Shown here: positions 1 to 12,292 of the stretch, one piece after another
Layout: every line of letters begins with the position of its first letter
How positions within the stretch are numbered: position 1 is the stretch's first letter
Sequence record: NZ_CP118941.1
Length of the DNA stretch: 12,292 bases
Strand: one strand, 5' to 3'
Origin: a plasmid
The notes under the pieces: generated by a model
What the model was told of the DNA's origin: nothing
Seen by the model: the letters and a program-made list of their open reading frames with translations, nothing else
Database searches by the model: none
Made by a program: the position numbers and the translations under genes

Positions 1-224
1 ATGCCCTTCAAGGTAGATACTGAAAATAGGAAGATGCTTGTGTGCAATTACTTTGGTCTGGAGCTTCAGAAGCAGGGACGCTCTGGCCAATATAATGGTT
101 CCATATCAAGGCGGATGATTGGAAACGACCTAATTTACTGCCTTATTGTTTTCATAAATGAGCATCCTAACGGCTATGTTAGTCAGGTGTTTTATTCTGT
201 GACCGGAAATACAAGCAATGGAAC
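1..224 (+). pseudogene. 5' part of an AT-rich hypothetical ORF (orfA), interrupted at ~224 by IS insertion; may also be partial at the window edge
   Basis: The six-frame ORF starts at position 1 and runs through the IS junction at 224, so its C-terminal residues are encoded by IS sequence. The AT-rich composition matches the DNA to the right of the second IS copy. No recognisable motif. Confidence 0.3.
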
Positions 225-1315
225 CGCGAATTCAACTCCGAAGTGCAACACCCGCCAAATCAAGCAACCTGTCGTAGTTCATCAAACACGATCTGCGGTT
301 GCCTGAAATCCAAACATTTGCGCGGTCTAAGGTTGAGTCGCCGCTCGAAGGCCGACAACTCATCCGGGCTGAGCTGGCTCAGGTCGCTGCCCTTGGGCAC
401 ATACTGCCGCAACAAGCCATTGCTGTTCTCGTTCAGACCTCGCTCCCACGCGCTGTATGGATGCGCGAAGTAAAACTGGGCATTTAGCACCTTGGCTACT
501 CGCTCATGTTCCACAAATTCACTGCCATTGTCCGCGGTGATTGTATGAACATGTGCCTTGTAGGGCTCTAGCATGCAGATGATGGCATCGGCCACTGCAG
601 CTGCCGTCTTGGCAGGCACATACTGCACTAGGTAGAGTCGGCTCTTACGCTCGGCCAGTGTCACGATGGCACCACTACCTTGTTTGCCCGAAACGGTATC
701 CACCTCCCAGTCACCCAATCGGCTACGAGAGTCGACTATCGCTGGGCGCTCATCGATCGATACCGGGTTGGGGATCACGCAGCGCTTGGCATTCTGTCCC
801 TTACGGTAACGTTTGTGGCCTTGCCGCAAGTGACGGAACAGCTTGCCACCGTTGGCCTTATCCTGCGCCACATAGCGGTAGATCCACTCATGACTGACAG
901 GGCAACCAATGCGCCTGCAGACCGAGCTTATCTGCTCCGGACTCCAGTCTGCGGCCAACGCCATGGTCACGAAAATAAGGGTATCTTCCGGGACACGATA
1001 TTTGCTGCTGGAACATCGTCGCAGGGTGGCCGATTGATGAGCCTCTGCTGGTTGATAACCTTGCGCACACCGGTTGCGACGGAGTTCGCGACTAATGGTG
1101 GATGGATGCACACCCACCTTGCGGGCAATCATTGCTTGGCTCAAGCCATGGTCATGAAGGCAGGCGATCTGGTATCGTTGTCCTTCGGTCAACTGATGGT
1201 ATCTCATGGTGTTCCGCTTTGTTTCTTTGGCGAGAAGAAGCGTACCAGAACCGGCAGTTGGCCTCTTCTCTCCTATGCACCATGGGTGTTGCAGTTATTA
1301 TCTGAATTCGCGACC
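224..1315 (-). mobile_element. IS30-family insertion sequence, copy 1 (~1088-1092 bp)
   Basis: 224-1315 is base-for-base identical to 3133-4224 (offset 2909). It contains one 315-aa transposase ORF. The termini are imperfect inverted repeats: left CGCGAATTCAACTCCGAAGTGCAACACCC, right (reverse complement) CGCGAATTCAGATAATAACTGCAACACCC. The size is in the IS30-family range. Confidence 0.85.
260..1207 (-). CDS. tnp: IS30-family DDE transposase (315 aa)
   Basis: N-terminal HTH with STISRELRRNR. WSPEQIS motif. GDWEVDTVSG...ERKSRLYL block. C-terminal SAWERGLNENSNGLLRQYVPKG...NLRPRKCLDFRQP. These match the conserved blocks of IS30 transposase (recalled from memory). Confidence 0.85.
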   Translation of the reverse strand: MRYHQLTEGQRYQIACLHDHGLSQAMIARKVGVHPSTISRELRRNRCAQGYQPAEAHQSATLRRCSSSKYRVPEDTLIFVTMALAADWSPEQISSVCRRIGCPVSHEWIYRYVAQDKANGGKLFRHLRQGHKRYRKGQNAKRCVIPNPVSIDERPAIVDSRSRLGDWEVDTVSGKQGSGAIVTLAERKSRLYLVQYVPAKTAAAVADAIICMLEPYKAHVHTITADNGSEFVEHERVAKVLNAQFYFAHPYSAWERGLNENSNGLLRQYVPKGSDLSQLSPDELSAFERRLNLRPRKCLDFRQPQIVFDELRQVA

Positions 1316-1352
1316 CCGTCTTTTAAAACAAAAGCTTGCAACACAAGGGATC

Positions 1353-2414
1353 ATGATGAAAAAGCTGACAGTAGTAGCATTGGCTCTTACCGCCGCCTTC
1401 CAGGCTCAAGCCGTCGAAGTGTACAAAAACGAGAGCACCCTGCTCGACCTCTACGGCCGCATCTACGCCGGCCAGTTCTTCGGCGAGAAGAAAGAGCTGG
1501 ACGCCAACGGTGACATCAAGAACGAATACAGCGACAAGCAGGGGGCTAACCAGTTTGTCCGTCTGGGCGCCAAGGTAGAGAGCGAGATCAACCCGGGTCT
1601 CAAGGCGCTGGCCCAGTACGAACTGCAGATGTACATCAACGACAGCGAGAAGACCGTCAGCGAGAACTCCGACAACCTGCGTACCCGTCTGGCGTTCGCC
1701 GGTGTCGGCGCCAACTGGGGAACCGTCACCTTCGGTCGCCAGAAGGGGGCCCCTGGCTTCCTGGCGGACTGGACTGATGTCTCCCTCTCCGACGGTTACG
1801 GCAACGAGGCACTGGGCGCCAAGACCGACACCTTCGCCACCAACCGCGCCGGCTCCGTGCTGAAGTACTCCGGCCTGTTCAACGGTTTCCAGGTAGATAC
1901 CAGCTACAAGTTCGATGGCGGTGACACCGAAGAGACCTCCAGCAAGGACAGCGATGCCGCCTACGGTGCCGCCGTGGCCTACACCTTCCCGTTCAACCTT
2001 TCCCTGGGGACCGCCTACAACGTGGGCATCCGCGACAAGAGCGGTGAAGAGGATGCCAAGCTGTGGCTGCTCTCCGCCAAGTACGACAACAAGGCCCTCT
2101 ACGCCGCCCTGAGCTATGCCGACGGCAGCGACTTCCTGGCCACCGGCAAGGATCACACCGGCTGGGAAGGGGCGCTGGGTTACAACTTCGAGAGCGGCTT
2201 CGGCCTGATGGCCCTGTGGAACAAGCAGAAGGTGGAGCAGGCTGGCAAGTCTGACTACGACTCCATCGACTACTACACCCTGGGTGCCCAGTACAAGTTC
2301 AACAAGAACCTGCGCGTCATCGGCGAGTACCGCATCAACAACCTCGACAGCCATGACAGCGGCAAGCTCAACACCAAGGATGACTTCCAGCTGGCGGCCC
2401 GCTACGACTTCTAA
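1353..2414 (+). CDS. Gram-negative general porin (OmpC/OmpF-like trimeric porin family), 353 aa with signal peptide
   Basis: ATGATG start at 1353 with AAGGGA Shine-Dalgarno 4-9 nt upstream. Signal peptide MMKKLTVVALALTAAFQAQA with an AQA cleavage site. Beta-barrel-like alternating pattern. C-terminal LAARYDF ends in Phe, typical of porins. The longer listed ORF (1206..) starts inside the IS and is rejected. Confidence 0.85.
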   Translation: MMKKLTVVALALTAAFQAQAVEVYKNESTLLDLYGRIYAGQFFGEKKELDANGDIKNEYSDKQGANQFVRLGAKVESEINPGLKALAQYELQMYINDSEKTVSENSDNLRTRLAFAGVGANWGTVTFGRQKGAPGFLADWTDVSLSDGYGNEALGAKTDTFATNRAGSVLKYSGLFNGFQVDTSYKFDGGDTEETSSKDSDAAYGAAVAYTFPFNLSLGTAYNVGIRDKSGEEDAKLWLLSAKYDNKALYAALSYADGSDFLATGKDHTGWEGALGYNFESGFGLMALWNKQKVEQAGKSDYDSIDYYTLGAQYKFNKNLRVIGEYRINNLDSHDSGKLNTKDDFQLAARYDF

Positions 2415-2436
2415 GTCGGCAACCACCTGACGACAC

Positions 2437-2467
2437 GGCGCGCAGAGCACTCTGCGCGCCGTTTTTT
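2437..2467 (+). terminator. Rho-independent terminator downstream of the porin gene
   Basis: Perfect 10-bp stem GGCGCGCAGA / TCTGCGCGCC with loop GCAC, followed by GTTTTTT. It lies between the convergent porin and methyltransferase genes. Confidence 0.6.
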
Positions 2468-2473
2468 ATTGCG

Positions 2474-3172
2474 TCAGGCCAGGGGTTTGTACGCCGACAC
2501 CAGCAACAGCATGGGGCGCTCCGCCTCCTCCGCCAGGGCCGGGTTGGCCGCAATCTGCGCCGCCGTCGGCCCCCACTCCTCCACGCGGCGGATCTGGAAC
2601 CCGGCGGCGACAAGGGCATTGAGGTAGGTGCCCAGGGTGCGGTGATACTTGACCACCCCCTCCGCCAGCCAGTTGCTGACCCGCTTGCCCTCGGCCTGGT
2701 AGCCGTTGACGGGCCAGGAGCGGCGTCCCTCTGCATCCACCAGCCAGCCCTGCGGCTGCGGGCAGGTGAAGATGGGGTGCTCCACCGAGAACACCAGGCT
2801 GCCGCCAGCCACCAGCGCACAGTGGATCTCCGCAAACAGCGGCGCCACCTCGGGCAGGTAGTGCAGCGCCAGGGAACTGTAGATGAGATCGAAAGGCTCA
2901 TCGGACAGCGCAAGACCGTCCAGATCCCCCTGCCGATAGCGGATGGTCTCATCCCGGGTCAGCTCGGCGGCACGGGCCAGCATCTTCGCGGAGAGATCGA
3001 TACCGACCACATCGGCAGCCCCGAGATCTCTGGCTGCCCGGCAGAACCAGCCATAACCGCAGCCCAGATCCAGCACCCGCTTGCCGGCAAGATCCGGCAG
3101 CATGGCTTGCAGCGCCGGCCACTCCGGCGCCCCCGCGAATTCAACTCCGAAGTGCAACACCCGCCAAATCAA
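2474..3172 (-). CDS. Class I SAM-dependent methyltransferase (Methyltransf_11/25-like); 5' end apparently replaced by IS-derived sequence
   Basis: Motif I VLDLGCGYGWF, followed by an acidic residue and the DLS..ML motif region. The motif sits only ~33 residues from the ORF start. The first 12-13 codons (3172..3134) lie inside IS copy 2. Confidence 0.75.
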   Translation of the reverse strand: MIWRVLHFGVEFAGAPEWPALQAMLPDLAGKRVLDLGCGYGWFCRAARDLGAADVVGIDLSAKMLARAAELTRDETIRYRQGDLDGLALSDEPFDLIYSSLALHYLPEVAPLFAEIHCALVAGGSLVFSVEHPIFTCPQPQGWLVDAEGRRSWPVNGYQAEGKRVSNWLAEGVVKYHRTLGTYLNALVAAGFQIRRVEEWGPTAAQIAANPALAEEAERPMLLLVSAYKPLA

Positions 3173-4224
3173 GCAACCTGTCGTAGTTCATCAAACACGA
3201 TCTGCGGTTGCCTGAAATCCAAACATTTGCGCGGTCTAAGGTTGAGTCGCCGCTCGAAGGCCGACAACTCATCCGGGCTGAGCTGGCTCAGGTCGCTGCC
3301 CTTGGGCACATACTGCCGCAACAAGCCATTGCTGTTCTCGTTCAGACCTCGCTCCCACGCGCTGTATGGATGCGCGAAGTAAAACTGGGCATTTAGCACC
3401 TTGGCTACTCGCTCATGTTCCACAAATTCACTGCCATTGTCCGCGGTGATTGTATGAACATGTGCCTTGTAGGGCTCTAGCATGCAGATGATGGCATCGG
3501 CCACTGCAGCTGCCGTCTTGGCAGGCACATACTGCACTAGGTAGAGTCGGCTCTTACGCTCGGCCAGTGTCACGATGGCACCACTACCTTGTTTGCCCGA
3601 AACGGTATCCACCTCCCAGTCACCCAATCGGCTACGAGAGTCGACTATCGCTGGGCGCTCATCGATCGATACCGGGTTGGGGATCACGCAGCGCTTGGCA
3701 TTCTGTCCCTTACGGTAACGTTTGTGGCCTTGCCGCAAGTGACGGAACAGCTTGCCACCGTTGGCCTTATCCTGCGCCACATAGCGGTAGATCCACTCAT
3801 GACTGACAGGGCAACCAATGCGCCTGCAGACCGAGCTTATCTGCTCCGGACTCCAGTCTGCGGCCAACGCCATGGTCACGAAAATAAGGGTATCTTCCGG
3901 GACACGATATTTGCTGCTGGAACATCGTCGCAGGGTGGCCGATTGATGAGCCTCTGCTGGTTGATAACCTTGCGCACACCGGTTGCGACGGAGTTCGCGA
4001 CTAATGGTGGATGGATGCACACCCACCTTGCGGGCAATCATTGCTTGGCTCAAGCCATGGTCATGAAGGCAGGCGATCTGGTATCGTTGTCCTTCGGTCA
4101 ACTGATGGTATCTCATGGTGTTCCGCTTTGTTTCTTTGGCGAGAAGAAGCGTACCAGAACCGGCAGTTGGCCTCTTCTCTCCTATGCACCATGGGTGTTG
4201 CAGTTATTATCTGAATTCGCGACC
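3133..4224 (-). mobile_element. IS30-family insertion sequence, copy 2 (identical to copy 1, same orientation)
   Basis: 100% identity to 224-1315. Same inverted repeats and same transposase ORF. Confidence 0.85.
3169..4116 (-). CDS. tnp: IS30-family DDE transposase (315 aa), second copy
   Basis: Protein identical to that of 260..1207. Confidence 0.85.
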   Translation of the reverse strand: MRYHQLTEGQRYQIACLHDHGLSQAMIARKVGVHPSTISRELRRNRCAQGYQPAEAHQSATLRRCSSSKYRVPEDTLIFVTMALAADWSPEQISSVCRRIGCPVSHEWIYRYVAQDKANGGKLFRHLRQGHKRYRKGQNAKRCVIPNPVSIDERPAIVDSRSRLGDWEVDTVSGKQGSGAIVTLAERKSRLYLVQYVPAKTAAAVADAIICMLEPYKAHVHTITADNGSEFVEHERVAKVLNAQFYFAHPYSAWERGLNENSNGLLRQYVPKGSDLSQLSPDELSAFERRLNLRPRKCLDFRQPQIVFDELRQVA

Positions 4225-4247
4225 TGGGAAGCCAAAATGGAAAGGTA

Positions 4248-4568
4248 ATGCATTTGAAATACATTCACTTCGCCACTAACAGAAATCCTAAGGAAAATAC
4301 AATAAAGCAAGGTTTGCTGCTTAGTAAAAAATTTATAGAATCACCTCGGTGGACATTGCTTTTCTCAAAGGAAAACCATTCCAATGCAAGTGATAATGAT
4401 TTTTCCTTTAACGGAACCAAAGTTTGGCAGGATGTAAGGTCTGGTTTGTTAGTCGTTGAGTCATATTCAAGTAATCGCAATGGCGTGGTAAATTCGATTA
4501 GCTTTAAAGAAACTGCAGAGTGGCCAGAATCAACAAGCGAAACCAAAAATGCAGAACCGCCGTTTTAG
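4248..4568 (+). CDS. Hypothetical protein (106 aa), AT-rich backbone gene (orfB)
   Basis: The ORF starts at an ATG embedded in AGGTAATG. If the composite element is removed, the reconstructed upstream orfA ends with a TAA that overlaps this ATG (TAATG coupling). The opposite-strand ORF 4265..4546 was rejected. No recognisable domain. Confidence 0.35.
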   Translation: MHLKYIHFATNRNPKENTIKQGLLLSKKFIESPRWTLLFSKENHSNASDNDFSFNGTKVWQDVRSGLLVVESYSSNRNGVVNSISFKETAEWPESTSETKNAEPPF

Positions 4569-4908
4569 CGTGATGGGATTGCATCCTAGATGCGTTACTA
4601 CTGTAACGTACTCGTGATGGTCGTGGTGGAGCCAGTTGTTCATGGCATCGGTATCAACTCAGAAGGTGAGTGAGCCACGGTTAATCAGAGACCTGTTGTA
4701 TTGAGGCCAGTTGGTGATGGGATGAAGCGCCTTGCCCATGAATGCTGACTTGAAGGGGATGGTGGTGATCAGATCACCGCCTCCTCAGTTAGTTCCACCA
4801 AGCCGCATCGATTTGGGCAACACGGGCGTATCAGGTCAACCTCAGTTACAGTGGTAAACCCCGCAGCCCATTGCTTCAGGGAGTCTACTACTTGATGATG
4901 TAGGCCAA

Positions 4909-5049
4909 TCATATCTCCTCGTAAGGATCAGCATCAATAGCACGTCCAGTGTCGTCCCAGTCTGGATCTTCCTCACCAAACTCGGGCAGCACATCCTCAA
5001 ACATGTTGTCCTCGTCTTCAGGGTAATCAGATTCAAATTCACCGTACAT
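4909..5049 (-). CDS. Small hyper-acidic protein, 46 aa (MYGEFESDYPEDEDNMFEDVLPEFGEEDPDWDDTGRAIDADPYEEI)
   Basis: Hand translation of the minus strand. GGAG Shine-Dalgarno about 8 nt upstream of the ATG (..CTTGGAGTGAAAGATG). 20 of 46 residues are D/E and there is one basic residue. It is below the 60-aa cutoff of the ORF track. The overlapping listed 87-aa ORF looks random. Confidence 0.45.
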   Translation of the reverse strand: MYGEFESDYPEDEDNMFEDVLPEFGEEDPDWDDTGRAIDADPYEEI

Positions 5050-5174
5050 CTTTCACTCCAAGTTTGATCTAGGGGTTGGCACACCCAAGCGTTTATTAAA
5101 CACACACGCAGGATTTTACAGGTTGAAGTTCAACTGCTGGGCTCATTGAGCGAATCAACTCTTAATGAGTTGCA

Positions 5175-5582
5175 CTACAGATCACTTAATTCTGTTGGGG
5201 TCGTTTTGAATTTACCGGTTTGCTTGTTTACGTGATGGAGTTCTTGTGACTGGAAATCACCCATATGCTGACCGTCTAGGAACATCGCAACATTATACTG
5301 TATTAAGCAGACCCATTCCGTTTGAGTTCCCATGCTTTTAATGACTTTTAATGCAGAAAAATAGTTGCCAGATTTATTTTCACCTTCATCCTCAATCGTG
5401 GCAATATTGGCATACCTGTCCCCAAAAGCGGTGCACTGTTCGAATGCAGGCCCAGGAATATATTTGCCATCGACCATTTTTTCTTGAGGCCAATCAATCC
5501 CCAAGTCACCCGCGAATGCACTTTGAGAAAGCATGGAAAAATAACATGCCAAAGTAATAAATAGTGCTCGTGGCAAATGCAT
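5175..5582 (-). CDS. Secreted/periplasmic hypothetical protein (135 aa) with Sec signal peptide
   Basis: An internal Met of the 201-aa ORF begins MHLPRALFITLACYFSMLSQSAFA followed by GD, a classic n-h-c signal peptide with an AFA cleavage site. AGGA Shine-Dalgarno 7 nt upstream. The 66 codons further upstream have no ribosome-binding site and are AT-rich. Confidence 0.55.
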   Translation of the reverse strand: MHLPRALFITLACYFSMLSQSAFAGDLGIDWPQEKMVDGKYIPGPAFEQCTAFGDRYANIATIEDEGENKSGNYFSALKVIKSMGTQTEWVCLIQYNVAMFLDGQHMGDFQSQELHHVNKQTGKFKTTPTELSDL

Positions 5583-6006
5583 GATAATTCCTATATGTTG
5601 CTCAGTAAAAATAGATATTGGCTTGGCGCGTTTTGTACTATTCAGTGCCTTGTAGATTACATTATATATCCTGAATGGATACTGCATAAGCCTCCCCATG
5701 TCGGTGGTGATCTCATCCGTTGCTAAATAGCTGTTCCGAATAGTAGAACACTGCTCTCGTGTTGCCTTCTCAAGTGGCATTGATCACGCATAGTCGGTCT
5801 AAGCCTTGTCATGTCCGGCTTTGCCACCTGATGGCAGGGATGCCTCACACCACAAGGGAAGGCAATAAAAGCAGGGTGATGCCGCTGTGCAAAACAACCT
5901 GGGATGGATGTATCAAGAAGGTCGTGCTGTGCTACAGGACGATCAGTAGGCAGTGGTCACCTCACGGGATGAGCCCTTGTTAGCCTGCAAGATGGGTTGT
6001 CTTGCC

Positions 6007-6066
6007 GGGCGTTATCTCCCATTCTGCGCCCCCCTACACGGGGGAGCGTTCGCCAGTTTGGGGGCT
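6007..6066. repeat. Left copy of an imperfect ~50-60 bp direct repeat (candidate att / recombination site) with CCCCC-N5-GGGGG hairpin
   Basis: GGGCGTTAT..GCGCCCCCCTACACGGGGGAGCGTTCGCCAGTTTGGGGGCT aligns with 11904-11953. The last 14 bp, CCAGTTTGGGGGCT, are identical in both copies. The left copy carries a 10-bp insertion (CTCCCATTCT). Confidence 0.6.
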
Positions 6067-6175
6067 TACTGCAGGGCTGCCGCGCTATGCTTGGCGGCCC
6101 CCCCGCCCCGAGCGCGACAGACTGCGCTAGTCGCCCCGTTGCTGGGACTTTGTTTACTGCATGGTTCGGTAGTCG

Positions 6176-6205
6176 TTATAATGTAATTGCGATTGTAATT
6201 ACGGA
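6176..6205 (+). promoter_or_regulatory. Putative promoter -10 (TATAAT at 6177) and operator (TGTAATT-N5-TGTAATTAC) of the relBE operon
   Basis: A TATAAT hexamer lies 34 nt upstream of the antitoxin ATG. Direct repeats of TGTAATT sit at 6182 and 6194, overlapping the palindrome GTAATTAC. This is typical of an autoregulated TA operator. The -35 is weak (TTTACT with a 19-nt spacer). Confidence 0.4.
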
Positions 6206-6215
6206 GTGTGTGGAA

Positions 6216-6458
6216 ATGGGGACGATTAACCTTCGCATCGACGACGACTTAAAGGCTCGTTCGTATGCGGTTCTTGATAGGCTCGGTGTCACCCCCTCGG
6301 AGCTGCTGCGGCAAACCCTGGAGTATGTTGCTTCCCAGGAGCGGTTGCCGTTTCGGACGACCGTGGTAACGGAGGATGAGGAGGCGCTGCTTGCCCTCGT
6401 TCGTGAGCGGCTGGCCAGCCCCCAGAAAGGGATCAGGGTGTCGCTGGATGACCTTTGA
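6216..6458 (+). CDS. relB: RelB/DinJ (StbD)-family RHH antitoxin, 80 aa
   Basis: MGTINLRIDDDLKARSYAVLDRLGVTPSELLRQTL..LPF is the DinJ/RelB ribbon-helix-helix signature. GGAG Shine-Dalgarno ~9 nt upstream. It overlaps the downstream toxin gene by 11 nt. Confidence 0.75.
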   Translation: MGTINLRIDDDLKARSYAVLDRLGVTPSELLRQTLEYVASQERLPFRTTVVTEDEEALLALVRERLASPQKGIRVSLDDL

Positions 6459-6735
6459 GCTTGAGTTCGATCCACGAGCGTGGAAGGAGTGGAAGAAGCT
6501 GGGTGATACCGTGCGCCAGCAGTTCAAGAAGAAGCTGGCAGAGGTACTGGAGCGACCAAGGGTCGAGGCCAACCGCCTGCATGGGCTGCCGGATTGCTAC
6601 AAGATCAAGCTGCGTGGGGCGGGGTATCGGTTGGTGTACCAGGTACAGGATGATCGGGTGCTGGTATTCGTGGTCGCGGTGGGGAAACGAGAGCGGGAGC
6701 AGGTGTATTTGGACGCTGGCTCGAGGCTGGAATAG
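6448..6735 (+). CDS. relE: RelE/StbE-family toxin (mRNA interferase), 95 aa
   Basis: MTFELEFDPRAWKEWKKLGDTVRQQFKKKLAEVLERPRV...YKIKLRGAGYRLVYQVQDDRVLVFVVAVGKRER closely follows the plasmid StbE/RelE consensus (recalled). The start overlaps the end of the antitoxin gene. Confidence 0.8.
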   Translation: MTFELEFDPRAWKEWKKLGDTVRQQFKKKLAEVLERPRVEANRLHGLPDCYKIKLRGAGYRLVYQVQDDRVLVFVVAVGKREREQVYLDAGSRLE

Positions 6736-6784
6736 GTGAAGTTGCCGAGGGGTGGCTAGTGCGGTAATAACCGGGAGCAGGTTG

Positions 6785-7126
6785 ATGATTATCCACCGTG
6801 GTGAGGCTTGGCAGAGCGCACAGGTTGAGGCTGCATTGAGCGAGGCTGATGCTGGTGACTTTGTGCCGGAAAAAGATATGGCGGCGAAGCTCAATCAGTT
6901 GGGCAAGCGGAAAAAAGCAGAGGCTGACGGTTGGGCTCAGGATAACCATGAGGCCATCCAAGAACTTAACCGGATGGTCGAAGAGCGCGGTCTGTTTTCC
7001 GATGGCTTATTTAAGATCGAGCAGATCATGGAGAGGGTTCGCAAGGGAGAAGAGGTTCTGCATTCGCTGGACGATGTCGAACGAGAGCTTAGCCGGGATG
7101 ATCCGAGGTGTATCACGGATGTGTAG
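6785..7126 (+). CDS. Orphan RHH-type antitoxin-like protein with CcdA/ParD-like C-terminal motif (113 aa)
   Basis: Start chosen at ATG 6785, which has GGAG 8 nt upstream. The segment AEADGWAQDNHEAIQELNRMVEERGLFSDG resembles the CcdA C-terminus, WKAENQEGMAEVARFIEMNGSFADE (recalled). No ccdB-like ORF follows. Confidence 0.35.
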   Translation: MIIHRGEAWQSAQVEAALSEADAGDFVPEKDMAAKLNQLGKRKKAEADGWAQDNHEAIQELNRMVEERGLFSDGLFKIEQIMERVRKGEEVLHSLDDVERELSRDDPRCITDV

Positions 7127-7674
7127 ACGACCGAATACTTAGGGGTCGCTTCAGAATTCGGAAATTAAAGCACGTTAAGAGATCCGATACCCAGCAACTG
7201 CGCGGCTTTGCGCAAGCTGCCAACCCCTAGAAACAGCATTTTCGTGGTTCTCGAAACTCGGCTGTTTCAGCCGTGCAATATGAGAGTGGTTTTCGAGAAA
7301 GCAACATGCCATACCAGCACTAGCGCGGATCTGATTCTCATTGAAGCCTCTCAAAAACGATCGTTTGCGAGAAGCTAGACCATGCCAGCGGCTTACCGTA
7401 CGATTTTTTCCGTTTTCTGAGGTGACCCCACTTATGAGTATTGCGCCCTGTATCAGGCAGCTAAAGACGAGGCGTTTTCTTCACCAGGTGAAGAGTATTC
7501 AGCCGCATTTTATTACTTGTCGCGCATCAACTGGCTCGGTCTTATGGATGCTCAACGAATCGCCCAAGAGGCTTCAGAACGGGTTTTATTCGTTCGTACT
7601 AACGAAAGGAAATGTGAAGGAAAGTTAGATGCGGCTAACGTTGCTCATGTCTAGGCACCTGCGGTAACGTATTG

Positions 7675-7741
7675 CCCAGAAAAGACAAACCCCGAACCTC
7701 TGCTTAATCAACTTGGCGGGAGATTACAGAGAGTTCGGGGC
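7675..7741 (-). terminator. Rho-independent terminator on the minus strand (candidate 3' end of a rep antisense RNA)
   Basis: Stem 7690-7702 / 7727-7740 (CCCCGAACCTCTG / CAGAGAGTTCGGGG, one bulge) with a 24-nt loop. On the minus strand it is followed by UUUGUCUUUUCU. It lies ~80 nt upstream of the rep start, on the opposite strand. Confidence 0.45.
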
Positions 7742-7775
7742 TGTATGGATAAATACCACAGGAAAAGAATACCAC

Positions 7776-7829
7776 ATGGATCACACCAAACAACCCTGCA
7801 CCGCCAATAAGCGCGGTGTTCGATGGTAA
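7776..7829 (+). CDS. Candidate 17-aa leader peptide (MDHTKQPCTANKRGVRW) translationally coupled to rep
   Basis: ATG at 7776 with AGGAAAAG Shine-Dalgarno 8-9 nt upstream. Its stop TAA (7827-7829) overlaps the rep ATG (7823) in the arrangement cgATGGTAA. The rep ATG itself has no good Shine-Dalgarno. Confidence 0.25.
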   Translation: MDHTKQPCTANKRGVRW

Positions 7830-8836
7830 AACCAGCGCTTCAAGCCGCTGTCTTTGTCGATCGTATCCCTCGTCGCCCCTACTGTTCCGATGATCCGGCG
7901 CAGGGGCTGCTTATCCGCCCGCAAGCGACCGCGTTGGCATATCGCCATATCCAGCACAACCCGCCGCCCCATGTCTCCTGTCTGGTGTTTGACGTGGACA
8001 GGAAACCGCATGAGCAACATTGGCGGGAGGGGTATCACGAATGGCGAGAGCGTGGCTTGCCTGCTCCGCACTGGATCTCGATCAACCCCGAGAACGGCAA
8101 TTACCACCTTGGCTACCTGTTGGCCTCGCCTGTGGCGCGTACCAGTGCCGCAAAGTTAAAACCACTTCGCTATTTAGCGGCCATAGAACACGTTCTAGCG
8201 CGTCGGTTGGGTGCAGACATGGGGTACGTTGGCTTGATAACCAAAAACCCCGTACACAGCGATTGGTGGACGATATGGCATAACCATGTGCCCTATCCCC
8301 TCGACTATCTCGCGGAGTTCTGCCCAGATGCTGATTTAGCGGCCTACAACCGCCGTAGCGGTAAAGAGGCGAGCGGGCTGGGGCGTAACGTCACAGTGTT
8401 CGATAACGTGCGGGAATGGGGCTACTGCGCGGTGCGGGAGTATTGGCGGCCCAATGGCTATGAAGCATGGGCTGAGGCTGTCCGTGCCGCTTGTGAGAGC
8501 GCTAATGCGTTTGGACGCGAGCAAGGTGGCCCGTTGCCCCATAGTGAGATCAAGGCCACTGCCAAGAGCATCGCCCGTTGGATCTGGCGGCACCTTACCC
8601 CGACCTCGTTTGCGGATTACGTTGATCGGACACATACCACCGAGATCCAAGCGCGGAGAGGGGCTAAGGGCGGCAAGGTATCCAAGGGCGGGGGGAGACC
8701 GAGCAAGGCCGCTGATCTTCTGCCTGCGGTGTTAGAACTCAAGGCGCAGGGCTACAGTAACCGCGACATTGCCGAGGATTTAGGGATCGGTTCGGCAAGT
8801 GTTAGCCGCTATCTCTCCAAAATTTCGCCAGAGTGA
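7823..8836 (+). CDS. rep: Plasmid replication initiator of the primase type (ColE2-like Replicase / AEP primase + PriCT + C-terminal HTH), 337 aa
   Basis: CLVFDVD matches the AEP primase DxD motif. INPENGNYHLGY is an sxH-like motif. WGYCAVREYW region. C-terminal LKAQGYSNRDIAEDLGIGSASVSRYL is a helix-turn-helix. The start is uncertain because ATG 7823 lacks a Shine-Dalgarno. Confidence 0.7.
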   Translation: MVKPALQAAVFVDRIPRRPYCSDDPAQGLLIRPQATALAYRHIQHNPPPHVSCLVFDVDRKPHEQHWREGYHEWRERGLPAPHWISINPENGNYHLGYLLASPVARTSAAKLKPLRYLAAIEHVLARRLGADMGYVGLITKNPVHSDWWTIWHNHVPYPLDYLAEFCPDADLAAYNRRSGKEASGLGRNVTVFDNVREWGYCAVREYWRPNGYEAWAEAVRAACESANAFGREQGGPLPHSEIKATAKSIARWIWRHLTPTSFADYVDRTHTTEIQARRGAKGGKVSKGGGRPSKAADLLPAVLELKAQGYSNRDIAEDLGIGSASVSRYLSKISPE

Positions 8837-8863
8837 TCCAAAACAAGCCTATATCAGATAACA

Positions 8864-8886
8864 GCGCCCGCAGGGCGTTCGTTTCT
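8864..8886 (+). terminator. Rho-independent terminator after rep
   Basis: Stem CGCCC-GCA-GGGCG (8865-8877) followed by TTCGTTTCT. It is nested in a longer palindrome, ATATCAGA...TCTGATAT (8851-8891). Confidence 0.5.
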
Positions 8887-9028
8887 GATATGGCTTGTCA
8901 TTAGAAAGAGGATCTTGGCGAGGTGGGCAAGCGCCCGAACCGGAGGCCGTCCATCAGGCCGTGGGTTTGGCCTGTGGACGGGGGCGTTGTCCACGGAGCG
9001 TGGGTGGGGTTGGTTTTTGTCCTGGTTC

Positions 9029-9271
9029 TCAACGACTGGACAGATCGATCTCGATACGCCGAAAGCCAATGCCATTGGCGGTGTTGGCGGCGGCATCGAT
9101 GCTCTTGAACACCCGCCAGCCCCCGCGTTGTCGTTCCAGGACAATGGTCTCGCTCTGTTTGCCGAACTTCACCAGATGCAGATGGTAGCCAGCCCCCATC
9201 GGGGTGGGGGCAATCAGGGCCTTGGCAAACCCACCTTGGTCAAACGTCCACTTCGCTTGCAGTTCTTCCAT
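9029..9271 (-). CDS. Hypothetical protein, 80 aa (MEELQAKWTFDQGG...GYHLHLVKFG...RGGWRVFKSIDAA)
   Basis: Balanced, protein-like composition unlike the neighbouring GC-skewed shadow ORFs. AAGG about 12 nt upstream. A perfect palindrome lies in its upstream region. No family recognised. Confidence 0.35.
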   Translation of the reverse strand: MEELQAKWTFDQGGFAKALIAPTPMGAGYHLHLVKFGKQSETIVLERQRGGWRVFKSIDAAANTANGIGFRRIEIDLSSR

Positions 9272-9284
9272 ATCAAAACGCGCC

Positions 9285-9298
9285 TTTGATTAATCAAA
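9285..9298. promoter_or_regulatory. Perfect 14-bp palindrome TTTGATTAATCAAA in an AT-rich intergenic region (operator-like)
   Basis: Seen directly in the sequence. It lies between the stop of ORF 9330..9614 and the start of ORF 9029..9271, in a locally AT-rich stretch with promoter-like hexamers on the minus strand. Confidence 0.35.
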
Positions 9299-9329
9299 TT
9301 TACAAAATGATTCTAGCACAGCGCCGTCT

Positions 9330-9614
9330 TTATACCAGCGGTGGCTTCGGCGGTTCACCTGGCCGTTCCAGTAGCGCCCAAAGGAGGCAGAGTGCGTACC
9401 AATGATCCTGTCGTGTCCGATCTGCCAGCTGTGACTGGCGAGCCCAATAACGGTGGATGTGTGCCCGCCCTATCTGGGGCGGTTGGCGCACCCCCGGCTC
9501 GTATTGACGAATGTCGAGCAGGATGGCGATCAGCCGTTTGACCATGGCGCGGCGGCTGGTTTTGCCGCCGTGTCGCAGGTAGGTATCGACCCGTTCCCTT
9601 ACCCATTGCTCCAT
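9330..9614 (-). CDS. Integrase N-terminal SAM-like (core-binding) domain-only protein, 94 aa; possible remnant of a second tyrosine recombinase
   Basis: IGRAHIHRYWARQSQLADRTRQDHWYALCLLWALLERPG fits the core-binding domain pattern of tyrosine recombinases (I..HI..Y...S..T...YAL..LL..L). Perfect AAGGAGG Shine-Dalgarno 6 nt upstream of the ATG. The start is 10 nt after the stop of the upstream integrase gene. Confidence 0.4.
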   Translation of the reverse strand: MEQWVRERVDTYLRHGGKTSRRAMVKRLIAILLDIRQYEPGVRQPPQIGRAHIHRYWARQSQLADRTRQDHWYALCLLWALLERPGEPPKPPLV

Positions 9615-9623
9615 GTGTCCTCC

Positions 9624-10592
9624 TTATCCCAGGTACGCGTTGGTCACGTCGATCCGCCCGTGCCCCAGTTCGGCGGCCACCTGCTCACGGGCCTGCAAAT
9701 CCAGCTCCCGCGCCGCCGCGACCTCGATCCCCAACTGGGCGGCTAAAAACCGATGATGGTCGGCACCGTGACCGATCCCGGCCGCGACGGGCGCGGGGGC
9801 ACCCACCAGGGTTTCGTACCGTCCCTGGGCGTAGGCGTGTCGTTCGCCGTGCGACCGGATGCCCGCGCTGCGCAGCTCGCTATAGGCAGCCGTCCTAAAG
9901 TCCTTGTAGGACATTGAGGGCGGGATCAACGAGCGGCCCTCCTGTTGGGCGGCGGCCTGGGCCAGTGCGTGGTGCTGGGCGGGTGATTGGCAGGGAACCT
10001 GCCGCACGAGCCCGCCCTTGGTGCCGTCCTCGATGCGGATCTGGCCGTGCCGTTCGGCCTGGGCAAGCGCCCGTTGGGCGTCGAGTTTGGCCGCCTCCTC
10101 GAACCGCAATCCCAACGAACGTTGGAGGCTCAGCAGGGCTCCCACCCGCTCGGAGACGGCGGCCACGGCGGTGTCGTGCTGGGACACCGGCACGGCATGA
10201 TCGGTGGTAGCGATCCCGCTACGGGTCGGCAGCCCCGCCTCGCGCACGGGGTCGAGCCGCACGGCCCGGTCGCCTCGGGCTATCTCCATGACCCGGTTAA
10301 CGGCGGAGAGCGCATTTTGGGCGGTGGCGGGGCTGATCTCCCCCTGCTCCAGCCGCGCGATCAGGTGGGCGGCATAACCGCGCAGGGTGGCCGTCTCGAT
10401 GTGCCGCATGTCCCTGATCCCCGCCTCCTCACGCGCCCAACTGGCGAACTGGCCCCAGCGATCGGCCATCGTGGCGATCGAACTGTGGCTCTGCATTCCC
10501 TCGCGCAGGGCGCTGCGCCCGGCATAGCCCATATCCCGGCTGCCGAGGCCAAAATTTCGTGAATCGGGGTTTGCCCGATCACATCTCGCCAT
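9624..10592 (-). CDS. int: Tyrosine recombinase / phage-type integrase (322 aa from Met at 10592)
   Basis: Ordered catalytic motifs are present: box I Arg in LGLRFEE, Lys in IEDGTKGGLVRQVP, box II HGERHAY, and the Tyr motif LGHGRIDVTNAYL. GGAG Shine-Dalgarno ~8 nt upstream of ATG 10592. The listed ORF extends to 10781 but that part lacks a ribosome-binding site. Confidence 0.75.
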   Translation of the reverse strand: MARCDRANPDSRNFGLGSRDMGYAGRSALREGMQSHSSIATMADRWGQFASWAREEAGIRDMRHIETATLRGYAAHLIARLEQGEISPATAQNALSAVNRVMEIARGDRAVRLDPVREAGLPTRSGIATTDHAVPVSQHDTAVAAVSERVGALLSLQRSLGLRFEEAAKLDAQRALAQAERHGQIRIEDGTKGGLVRQVPCQSPAQHHALAQAAAQQEGRSLIPPSMSYKDFRTAAYSELRSAGIRSHGERHAYAQGRYETLVGAPAPVAAGIGHGADHHRFLAAQLGIEVAAARELDLQAREQVAAELGHGRIDVTNAYLG

Positions 10593-10940: not shown

Positions 10941-11056
10941 CTGGGTATCATCGCATCGCATCTCATCGGCTACCCGGTGGGAGGCAGTGGCCGCAAGGCT
11001 CCGCCGGAGGCTTATTCGTGCGTGGCGTGATCCTTAGAGCAAGGAATACCTGAAAA

Positions 11057-11188
11057 GGTGTTGGTCTATAAAGTAAGAAATGCCTACAAGGTGCTAGTCT
11101 ATAAAGTAAGAAATGCCTACAAGGTGCTAGTCTATAAAGTAAGAAATGCCTGCAAGGTGCTAGTCTATAAAGTAAGAAATGCCTGCAA
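11057..11188. repeat. Four tandem 33-bp direct repeats (iteron-like), then a degenerate partial fifth
   Basis: Units start at 11057, 11090, 11123 and 11156, with consensus GGTGCTAGTCTATAAAGTAAGAAATGCCTRCAA. Units 1-2 have CCTACAA and units 3-4 have CCTGCAA. Unit 1 begins GGTGTTGG. There are no spacers, so this is not a CRISPR array. Confidence 0.85.
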
Positions 11189-12205: not shown

Positions 12206-12292
12206 ATGTTTAAAGGTATAAGACTTGCTTTGTTGGCTTTAATCCTCTCCATAAACCATGCAAATGCCAGTATTCCTCTTCCATCCGGGGAG
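12206..12292 (+). CDS. N-terminus of a secreted protein (partial, runs off the window): MFKGIRLALLALILSINHANA...
   Basis: ATG at 12206 with GAGG Shine-Dalgarno 7 nt upstream. Signal-peptide-like n-h-c region with ANA. AT-rich backbone composition. Confidence 0.45.
   Translation, partial: MFKGIRLALLALILSINHANASIPLPSGE

What the first reader, a model, noticed from the sequence alone, without database searches (positions are those of the whole stretch)
224..4224. Composite-transposon-like unit: two identical IS30-family copies carrying a porin gene and a SAM methyltransferase gene, dropped into an AT-rich operon
Two 1092-bp IS copies are 100% identical and in direct orientation. They flank a 1.8-kb GC-rich segment (porin + methyltransferase) that is very different in composition from the AT-rich DNA outside.

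The outer flanks share a 2-bp AC (223-224 and 4222-4223), which is the duplication size expected for IS30-type elements.

If 225-4223 is deleted in silico, the interrupted upstream ORF reads ...SNGTWEAKMER and stops at a TAA. That TAA overlaps the ATG of the 4248 ORF as TAATG, so a translationally coupled two-gene operon is restored in frame.

This supports the whole IS-porin-methyltransferase-IS block having transposed as one unit into orfA, taking an outer-membrane porin with it.
Basis: partly seen in the sequence, partly recalled or inferred. Interest (0 to 1): 0.6.

Follow-up and report, generated by a model that had tools for sequence, protein, structure and literature searches.

The report
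IS30-family composite transposon carrying a porin
Two identical copies of an active IS30-family insertion sequence have carried a 1.8-kb piece of Aeromonas caviae chromosome (a porin gene and a clipped methyltransferase gene) into a small gene of an Aeromonas plasmid; this is a well-documented but ordinary case of gene capture by a compound transposon.

Summary
There is an exact 1092-bp direct repeat (224-1315 and 3133-4224). Within it, the insertion sequence (IS) proper is 1088 bp (225-1312 and 3134-4221). It has 29-nt imperfect inverted repeats and an IS30-family transposase.

- **Natural empty sites exist.** Ten related contigs read ...AATGGAACCTGGG... with an intact 111-aa orfA overlapping orfB as TAATG. 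The window therefore has a 3,997-bp unit plus a 2-bp AC duplication. This IS makes perfect 2-bp duplications at 8 of 8 independent single insertions.
- **The window is a whole circular plasmid.** It equals an 8.07-kb Aeromonas plasmid plus this unit plus a 288-bp miniature element.
- **The cargo is Aeromonas caviae-type chromosome.** It matches the glpX|porin-methyltransferase locus at about 99%. The porin protein is identical to the native one. The methyltransferase has lost its first 25 codons.
The cargo comes from the host genus, and it is the AT-rich orfA-orfB module that looks foreign. The methyltransferase is truncated. orfA starts at 12206, across the window ends.

One point stays open. 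The dinucleotide just inside copy 1 is AC, but native chromosomes read GC. One-step transposition is therefore favoured but not proven. No second copy of the unit was found. This is a new member of a known kind, of low interest.

The parts
12206..12292 (+). 5' part of orfA (111 aa when intact; predicted signal peptide MFKGIRLALLALILSINHANA by inspection). It continues at window base 1 because the plasmid is circular.
   Evidence: L004 bridges the window end to the window start at 99.5-100% identity. The translation is identical to the L004 orfA.
1..224 (+). Middle part of orfA, up to the insertion point.
223..224 (.). Left copy of the 2-bp target-site duplication (AC).
   Evidence: the empty sites read AATGGAACCTGGG, with a single AC.
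225..1312 (-). IS copy 1 (1088 bp, IS30 family). Inverted repeat at the transposase 3' end is 225-253; the transposase is 260-1207; the inverted repeat at the transposase 5' end is 1284-1312.
1313..1314 (.). Inner flank of copy 1 (AC). C1314 is native; A1313 is G in every native chromosome seen. This is unexplained.
1314..3133 (.). Captured segment of Aeromonas caviae-type chromosome, 98.7-99.2% identical to native loci. Homology runs to 3136 because the first 3 bases of the IS (CGC) coincide with the native sequence.
1353..2414 (+). General porin gene (353 aa; OmpF/PhoE-like beta-barrel). The protein is identical to the native chromosomal protein. Only 39 bp of native upstream DNA is retained.
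   Evidence: Porin_4 1e-29, Porin_1 8e-27; exact product on native chromosomes.
2435..2462 (+). GC-rich hairpin followed by a T-run between the convergent porin and methyltransferase genes (intrinsic-terminator-like).
2474..3133 (-). 5'-truncated class I SAM-dependent methyltransferase gene. The first 25 of 245 codons are replaced by the IS end; the SAM-binding core is retained.
3134..4221 (-). IS copy 2, identical to copy 1 (transposase 3169-4116). Its left flank is CC (native) and its right flank is AC (plasmid).
4222..4223 (.). Right copy of the 2-bp target-site duplication (AC).
4224..4248 (+). 3' remnant of orfA (last 8 codons plus TAA at 4246-4248).
4248..4568 (+). orfB (106 aa, no known family). 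Its ATG overlaps the orfA stop (TAATG). It is now separated from orfA by 4 kb.

Best explanation
Window positions 225-4221 are a 3,997-bp compound (composite) transposon. It has two directly repeated, identical copies of a 1088-bp IS30-family insertion sequence. Between them lie 1.8 kb of Aeromonas caviae-type chromosome: an intact general porin gene and a methyltransferase gene missing its first 25 codons.

The inferred history has three steps:
1. In a donor Aeromonas chromosome, one IS copy landed 39 bp upstream of the porin start codon and another landed inside the 5' end of the neighbouring methyltransferase gene.
2. The transposase then used the two outermost IS ends. By analogy with IS30 and ISApl1/Tn6330, this goes through a copied-out circle in which the two IS ends abut.
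3. The unit was pasted into an AC dinucleotide near the 3' end of orfA on a small (about 8 kb) Aeromonas plasmid, duplicating the AC.

Consequences: the last 8 codons of orfA are replaced, and orfB is uncoupled from orfA.

Shown here: the structure, the empty site, the 2-bp duplication, the IS family, the IS's 2-bp rule, and the chromosomal source. Inferred: the order of events, the circular intermediate, movement in one step, and any expression of the porin from the plasmid.
For: - The 1092-bp repeat is exact, and the IS limits and inverted repeats are defined.
- The transposase passes the NCBIfam IS30 equivalog at 313.6 bits against a cut-off of 80, and has HTH_38 plus rve domains.
- The same IS, 1088/1088 identical, sits at 8 independent single sites with perfect 2-bp duplications.
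- Ten natural empty sites match the reconstruction exactly, and the intact orfA product occurs on 265 contigs as an Aeromonas protein.
- L004, an 8,070-bp contig, is colinear with the window at 99.5-100% apart from 225-4223 and 7142-7429. It also bridges the window ends.
- The cargo matches four native chromosomal loci over 1314-3136 at 98.7-99.2%. The native gene order is glpX, porin, methyltransferase, acetyltransferase, TonB-dependent receptor.
- IS copy 2 has unlike flanks (CC and AC), as expected for an IS that is part of a larger unit.
- Its inner flank CC equals the native sequence, like the ancestral inside-end dinucleotides of Tn6330 (PMC5821093).
- For the related ISApl1, only the intact two-IS unit transposes, with 2-bp duplications and junctions where the IS ends abut (PMC6349718).
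Against: - The unit was found at only this one location. None of its four junctions occurs elsewhere in the plasmid records, GTDB genomes, JGI metagenome contigs, IMG/VR or the protein collection. Mobility as a unit is therefore inferred from one insertion.
- The inner flank of copy 1 is AC, but the native sequence is GC in 9 of 9 loci. Copy 1 on its own therefore also looks like a simple insertion with its own AC/AC duplication.
- No reads were available to confirm that both IS copies lie on one molecule.
Confidence: 0.62

Rival explanations
1. Assembly in place. A single IS copy first inserted into orfA and made the AC/AC duplication, which is still visible as 223-224 and 1313-1314. The cargo plus the second IS copy (1315-4221) arrived later. 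Possible routes are homologous recombination between the resident IS and an IS-plus-cargo circle excised from a chromosome, a plasmid-chromosome cointegrate resolved through another IS copy, or IS30-type insertion next to an existing IS end.
For: - Copy 1 is flanked by AC on both sides, and 1313 is A where all nine native loci have G.
- The A-variant of the native sequence has 0 hits in two large collections, although G-variant natives come from one of them.
- Circles holding one IS plus cargo have been detected for IS30-family compound transposons (PMC7104195, PMC6349718).
- The final structure is identical to that of one-step transposition.
Against: - Simple recombination with a chromosomal IS-plus-cargo circle would also import the native GC flank, so it does not explain A1313 without a further assumption (retention of the 2-nt circle spacer, or use of a pseudo-end).
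- Single-ended ISApl1 units did not transpose in experiments (PMC6349718).
- No plasmid with a single IS at this site was found.
- It needs more steps than one-step transposition.
Confidence: 0.28
2. Assembly artefact. The true molecules are a plasmid with one IS copy and some other replicon or chromosomal region carrying IS-porin-methyltransferase. The assembler joined them through the shared IS repeat.
For: A 1.09-kb exact repeat cannot be resolved by short reads. The assembly graph of one 12.3-kb circle equals that of two circles that share the IS. No reads were available here.
Against: - The cargo ends abut IS ends in the right polarity on both sides.
- A 2.9-kb IS-plus-cargo circle has no replication functions.
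- If the cargo were simply chromosomal and flanked by two IS copies, the outer chromosomal flanks would also be in the graph.
- The outer flanks form a perfect 2-bp duplication around a site that is intact in 10 relatives. A single-IS plasmid would give the same outer flanks, so this point does not discriminate.
Confidence: 0.07
3. The cargo was already part of the plasmid, and the two IS copies inserted independently on either side of it.
For: None beyond the general possibility.
Against: Ten relatives join the two outer flanks directly, with a single AC and an intact orfA. The cargo is 99% identical to a chromosomal locus whose neighbours (glpX, acetyltransferase) are absent from the plasmid. 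Copy 2 has no duplication of its own.
Confidence: 0.01

Closest known systems
Tn6330 (ISApl1-mcr-1-pap2-ISApl1), the IS30-family compound transposon that mobilised mcr-1 from Moraxella
   Same: Two directly repeated copies of an IS30-family IS of about 1.07-1.09 kb. A short (1.8-2.6 kb) piece of chromosome whose donor locus can be identified at 97-99% identity. The second cargo gene is truncated by an IS copy. There is a 2-bp target duplication. The inside-end dinucleotide next to the downstream IS copy matches the donor sequence (PMC5821093, PMC6349718).
   Different: A different IS (2-bp duplication rule shared, sequence unrelated to the level tested). The cargo is a general porin, not a resistance gene. 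It is known at one site only, against 20 or more sites for Tn6330. One inside-end dinucleotide (AC) does not match the donor (GC). No experimental transposition data exist.
Tn6518 (ISAs2-...-mcr-3.6-mcr-3-like-dgkA-ISAs2) of Aeromonas veronii
   Same: An Aeromonas compound transposon bounded by two direct copies of an IS30-family element and carrying chromosomal Aeromonas genes (PMC7104195).
   Different: ISAs2 is reported there with 50-bp inverted repeats and 3-bp duplications. The IS here has 29-nt inverted repeats and 2-bp duplications, so it is another element. Tn6518 is chromosomal and 8.4 kb.
ISCR1-associated capture of the homologous porin locus in plasmid pGSH8M-1-1 (Aeromonas caviae, NZ_AP019196.1)
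   Same: A porin 89% identical at the DNA level, taken from an Aeromonas chromosome onto a plasmid, starting at almost the same point upstream of the porin.
   Different: A different mobilising element (IS91-like ISCR1, between sul1 copies of a complex class 1 integron). Different downstream cargo (substrate-binding protein and TonB-dependent receptor, no methyltransferase). A different donor species.

Membership tests
IS30 family insertion sequence | A single transposase with an N-terminal helix-turn-helix and a DDE (rve-type) catalytic core that matches the family model. | tested here: met
   NCBIfam NF033563 transpos_IS30 at 313.6 bits (cut-off 80), covering model positions 1-267 of 267. 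Pfam HTH_38 at 2.7e-15; rve at 30.2 bits, just under its cut-off of 32.6.
IS30 family insertion sequence | Length about 1.0-1.25 kb, with terminal inverted repeats of about 20-30 bp. | tested here: met
   1088 bp. 29-nt inverted repeats, 79% complementary.
IS30 family insertion sequence | 2-3 bp target-site duplication. | tested here: met
   Eight of 8 independent single insertions have perfect 2-bp duplications.
IS30 family insertion sequence | Transposition through a circle or tandem dimer in which the two IS ends abut with a 2-bp spacer. | not testable with these tools
   Needs inverse PCR or reads from the isolate. Known for IS30 and ISApl1 (PMC6349718, PMC5821093).
Compound (composite) transposon | Two copies of the same IS bracketing unrelated cargo. 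| tested here: met
Compound (composite) transposon | A target duplication of the IS's characteristic length flanks the whole unit, and an uninterrupted empty site exists. | tested here: met
   AC at 223-224 and 4222-4223. Ten empty sites have a single AC.
Compound (composite) transposon | Individual IS copies lack their own duplications, and the inside-end flanks equal the donor sequence. | tested here: inconclusive
   Copy 2: flanks CC and AC, with the inner CC native (met). Copy 1: flanks AC and AC, with the inner flank differing from the native GC at 1313.
Compound (composite) transposon | The same unit is found at two or more different sites, or is shown to move experimentally. | tested here: not met
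   No second occurrence of the cargo with the IS, or of any junction. The searches were limited to the collections offered; no experiment was possible.
Compound (composite) transposon | The cargo is traceable to a donor locus that lacks the IS copies. | tested here: met
   Native glpX-porin-methyltransferase loci L013, L016, L017 and L021 match at 98.7-99.2%.

The most novel reading that the evidence does not exclude
The three AC dinucleotides (223-224, 1313-1314, 4222-4223) may be a mechanistic footprint rather than a coincidence. One possibility is that the IS copy resident in orfA seeded the chromosomal copy, and the 2-nt AC spacer of its circle was ligated into the new site: AC opposite native GC needs only a G.T wobble. 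The other possibility is that the cargo plus one IS inserted next to the resident IS end as a one-ended unit. Either would be an undescribed way for IS30-family elements to carry flank bases between sites or to build compound transposons in place.
Probability: 0.12. Interest if true: 0.45.

Novelty: new member of a known kind. Interest (0 to 1): 0.2.

Why it matters
This is a clean natural example of how an IS30-family element lifts chromosomal DNA onto a small plasmid. The donor locus, the empty target site, the duplication and the cargo limits are all recoverable to the base. It follows the same pattern that created the mcr-1 transposon Tn6330.

The cargo is a housekeeping-type porin rather than a resistance gene. 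A plasmid-borne extra porin copy could alter outer-membrane permeability, or phage or antibiotic susceptibility, but nothing here shows that it is expressed: only 39 bp of native upstream DNA came with it.

The IS is identical in Aeromonas, Klebsiella, Enterobacter, Citrobacter and Raoultella plasmids and chromosomes, so it is recently active and widely shared. No known principle is challenged.

Tried and rejected
1. **Other occurrences of the unit or its junctions.** All of these searches found nothing:
   - the inner IS1-cargo junction, which doubles as the native A-variant, in JGI metagenome contigs, GTDB genomes and IMG/VR;
   - the right outer junction in metagenome contigs;
   - the left outer junction in genomes;
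   - a homology search with the orfA-IS fusion product, which found only intact orfA relatives and unrelated genes fused to the same IS end.

2. **Naming the IS.** The literature and record annotations did not name it. ISAs2 was rejected because it has 3-bp duplications and 50-bp inverted repeats. The papers on ISApu1/ISApu2 gave no usable sequence features. Plasmid records call the protein only 'IS30 family transposase'. ISfinder was not available.

3. **An IS-end-like box next to the inner junction.** TGCAACACAA at 1337-1346 resembles the inner box TGCAACACCC of both inverted repeats. However, it is 5 nt out of register, and about 0.7 such matches are expected among all the flanks tested, so it was rejected as not significant.

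4. **Promoter scan.** No sigma-70-like site faces the porin, either in the window upstream region or in the native intergenic region. This says nothing firm about expression.

5. **'Cargo from a foreign GC-rich genus'.** Rejected. The cargo is Aeromonas, as are the plasmid's relatives.
Full report
**Observation.** The window holds an exact direct repeat of 1092 bp, at 224-1315 and 3133-4224. Inside it, 29-nt imperfect inverted repeats (CGCGAATTCA-N9-TGCAACACCC on both ends) delimit an insertion sequence (IS) of 1088 bp, at 225-1312 and 3134-4221. The additional C on the left and ACC on the right are flank bases that happen to agree.

Each copy encodes a 315-aa protein on the minus strand. It has an HTH_38 domain and an rve-type core. 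It scores 313.6 bits against the NCBIfam IS30 transposase equivalog, whose cut-off is 80.

Between the copies lie 1.8 kb at 61-69% GC. The DNA outside is 37-44% GC. The one adjustment is that the IS proper is 1088 bp, not 1092 bp.

**How this IS behaves elsewhere.** An exact look-up of the transposase returned ten further places, in enterobacterial-sized chromosomes. In all of them the IS is 1088/1088 identical to the window copies. Eight single insertions are each flanked by a perfect 2-bp duplication: AA, CT, CC, CT, GT, TG, GA and AG. One pair of inverted copies has swapped flanks, which is the mark of an inversion. The same IS also occurs at 99.7-100% identity in plasmids of Aeromonas, Klebsiella, Enterobacter, Citrobacter and Raoultella. 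It is therefore a recently active, widely shared element with a strict 2-bp rule. I could not attach an ISfinder name to it. ISAs2 is excluded because it has 3-bp duplications and 50-bp inverted repeats.

**The empty site.** An exact look-up of orfB (106 aa) returned ten contigs, L003-L012. In each, orfB is preceded by a 111-aa ORF whose stop overlaps the orfB start codon. All ten read ACAAGCAATGGAACCTGGGAAGCCAAAATGGAAAGGTAATG. The window reads ...AATGGAAC, then 225-4221, then ACCTGGG.... The flanks are 100% identical to the empty sites.

The reconstructed orfA product equals a protein annotated as a multispecies Aeromonas hypothetical protein, seen on 265 contigs. The disrupted product is not on record.

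**The window is a whole plasmid.** L004 is an 8,070-bp contig. It is colinear with the window at 99.5-100% identity apart from two segments, 225-4223 and 7142-7429. It also runs straight from the window end into the window start. The window is therefore a complete circular plasmid of 12,292 bp, linearised inside orfA. The true orfA start is at 12206.

The backbone carries RelB/ParE and CcdA-like modules, a Replicase-family initiator, an Integrase_1 protein and 33-bp repeats. Its closest plasmid relatives are all from Aeromonas.

**Origin of the cargo.** The whole 1.8 kb matches a 4.9-Mb Aeromonas caviae KAM479 replicon at 98.9%. That replicon is a chromosome filed among plasmids. An exact look-up of the porin protein found it on native chromosomes and long metagenome contigs. 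There the gene order is glpX, porin, a 245-aa methyltransferase (present in some genomes and absent in others), acetyltransferase, TonB-dependent receptor.

Homology to four native loci runs from 1314 to 3136 at 98.7-99.2%. The cargo therefore begins 39 bp upstream of the porin start codon and ends inside the methyltransferase gene. That gene has lost its first 25 codons to IS copy 2. The porin is an OmpF/PhoE-type general porin by Pfam and NCBIfam, below the equivalog cut-offs.

It therefore identifies the source rather than refuting the capture. The cargo is from the host genus. The AT-rich orfA-orfB module is the compositionally foreign part.

**Mechanism.** The pattern is that of Tn6330. 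An IS30-family element inserted on both sides of a chromosomal segment, and the unit then moved using its outer ends, leaving a 2-bp duplication. The inside ends keep the ancestral target dinucleotides (PMC5821093). For ISApl1, only the intact two-IS unit transposes, and it does so through junctions of abutting IS ends with 2-bp spacers (PMC6349718).

Here, copy 2 has unlike flanks (CC and AC), and its inner CC equals the native sequence, as expected. I therefore favour one-step transposition of the 3,997-bp unit into orfA, with confidence about 0.6. Two consequences follow directly from the sequence:
- the last 8 codons of orfA are replaced by IS-derived codons;
- orfB is separated from orfA by 4 kb.

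Whether the porin is expressed is unknown. No promoter-like site faces it, and almost all of the native intergenic region was left behind.

**What does not fit.** The dinucleotide to the right of copy 1 (1313-1314) is AC. All nine native loci read GC there. The A-variant of the native sequence has no hit in JGI metagenome contigs or GTDB genomes, although two of the G-variant natives come from JGI.

As a result, copy 1 on its own looks like a simple insertion with an AC/AC duplication, and 1315-4221 is also bracketed by AC. There are four candidate explanations:
- a polymorphism in the unsampled donor, roughly a 1% prior given 0.8-1.3% divergence;
- a consensus error at the first base after a long exact repeat;
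- an IS resident in orfA first, with the cargo and second copy added in place;
- retention of the 2-nt circle spacer at integration.

Plain recombination with an IS-plus-cargo circle would bring in the native GC, so it does not by itself explain the A. I give assembly in place about 0.28. I could not separate the models, because none of the four junctions occurs anywhere else in the collections available.

An IS-end-like box (TGCAACACAA, 1337-1346) next to the inner junction is out of register and is within chance expectation.

**Artefact.** Without reads, a repeat-mediated misjoin cannot be excluded. It is unlikely, at about 0.07. A 2.9-kb IS-plus-cargo circle has no replication functions, and both cargo ends abut IS ends in the correct polarity.

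**Verdict.** It needs three corrections: the methyltransferase is truncated, the cargo comes from the host genus, and orfA runs across the window ends. It is a new compound transposon of a well-known kind, seen once and carrying non-resistance cargo. Interest is low. The only mildly unusual detail is the unexplained inner AC.

Noticed in passing
window 7142-7429 (flanks 7137-7141 and 7430-7434): A 288-bp insert that is absent from the otherwise identical plasmid L004. Its ends are GGGGTCGCTTCAGAA ... TTCTGAGGTGACCCC, which resemble Tn3-family inverted repeats. It is flanked by a 5-bp direct repeat, ACTTA. It looks like a Tn3-derived miniature inverted-repeat element and is a second recent insertion in this plasmid.
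   Followed up: partly
window 11022-11186: Four to five tandem 33-bp repeats (AAGGTGCTAGTCTATAAAGTAAGAAATGCCTAC). They are probably iterons of the replication origin belonging to the Replicase-family initiator at 7823-8836.
   Followed up: no
window 4615-4822: A fragment of about 208 bp that is 85-89% identical to the IS5-like element ISAs4 of Aeromonas salmonicida plasmids. It is an IS remnant just downstream of orfB, and is also present in the empty-site relatives.
   Followed up: no
L002 (NZ_AP019196.1, pGSH8M-1-1) 4190-10362: ISCR1 sits directly upstream of a porin 89% identical to the cargo. It is followed by a substrate-binding protein and a TonB-dependent receptor, all between two qacEdelta1-sul1 copies. 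This is an independent capture of the homologous chromosomal locus by a different element.
   Followed up: partly
L030/L031 (CP162956.1, about 5,176,600-5,185,900): Two inverted copies of the same IS bracket a 295-aa gene next to brxL/pglZ. Their flanks are swapped (AA..GT and GT..AA), which indicates an IS-mediated inversion beside a BREX defence locus.
   Followed up: no
L001/L016 (A. caviae KAM479) 2800-5990: In this strain the native glpX-porin intergenic region is interrupted 33 bp upstream of the porin start codon by an IS21-like element. That element is itself split by an IS4-type transposase, with an IS66-type element nearby. The region upstream of this porin is therefore a repeated landing place for mobile elements.
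   Followed up: no
window 12206-12292, 1-224 and 4224-4568; L003-L012: The orfA-orfB pair (a 111-aa protein that looks secreted, plus a 106-aa protein) has no Pfam or NCBIfam match. Only three distant clusters exist in 5.8 billion proteins, yet orfB appears in 498 blocks of the collection and orfA on 265 contigs. It always sits on small Aeromonas-type plasmids with varying neighbours (relaxase, chemoreceptor, ParC-like protein). It is a conserved AT-rich module of unknown function.
   Followed up: partly
NZ_AP026896.1 in the plasmid collection: This 4.94-Mb 'plasmid pKAM479_3' record is evidently the Aeromonas caviae chromosome, mislabelled in the plasmid database.
   Followed up: no
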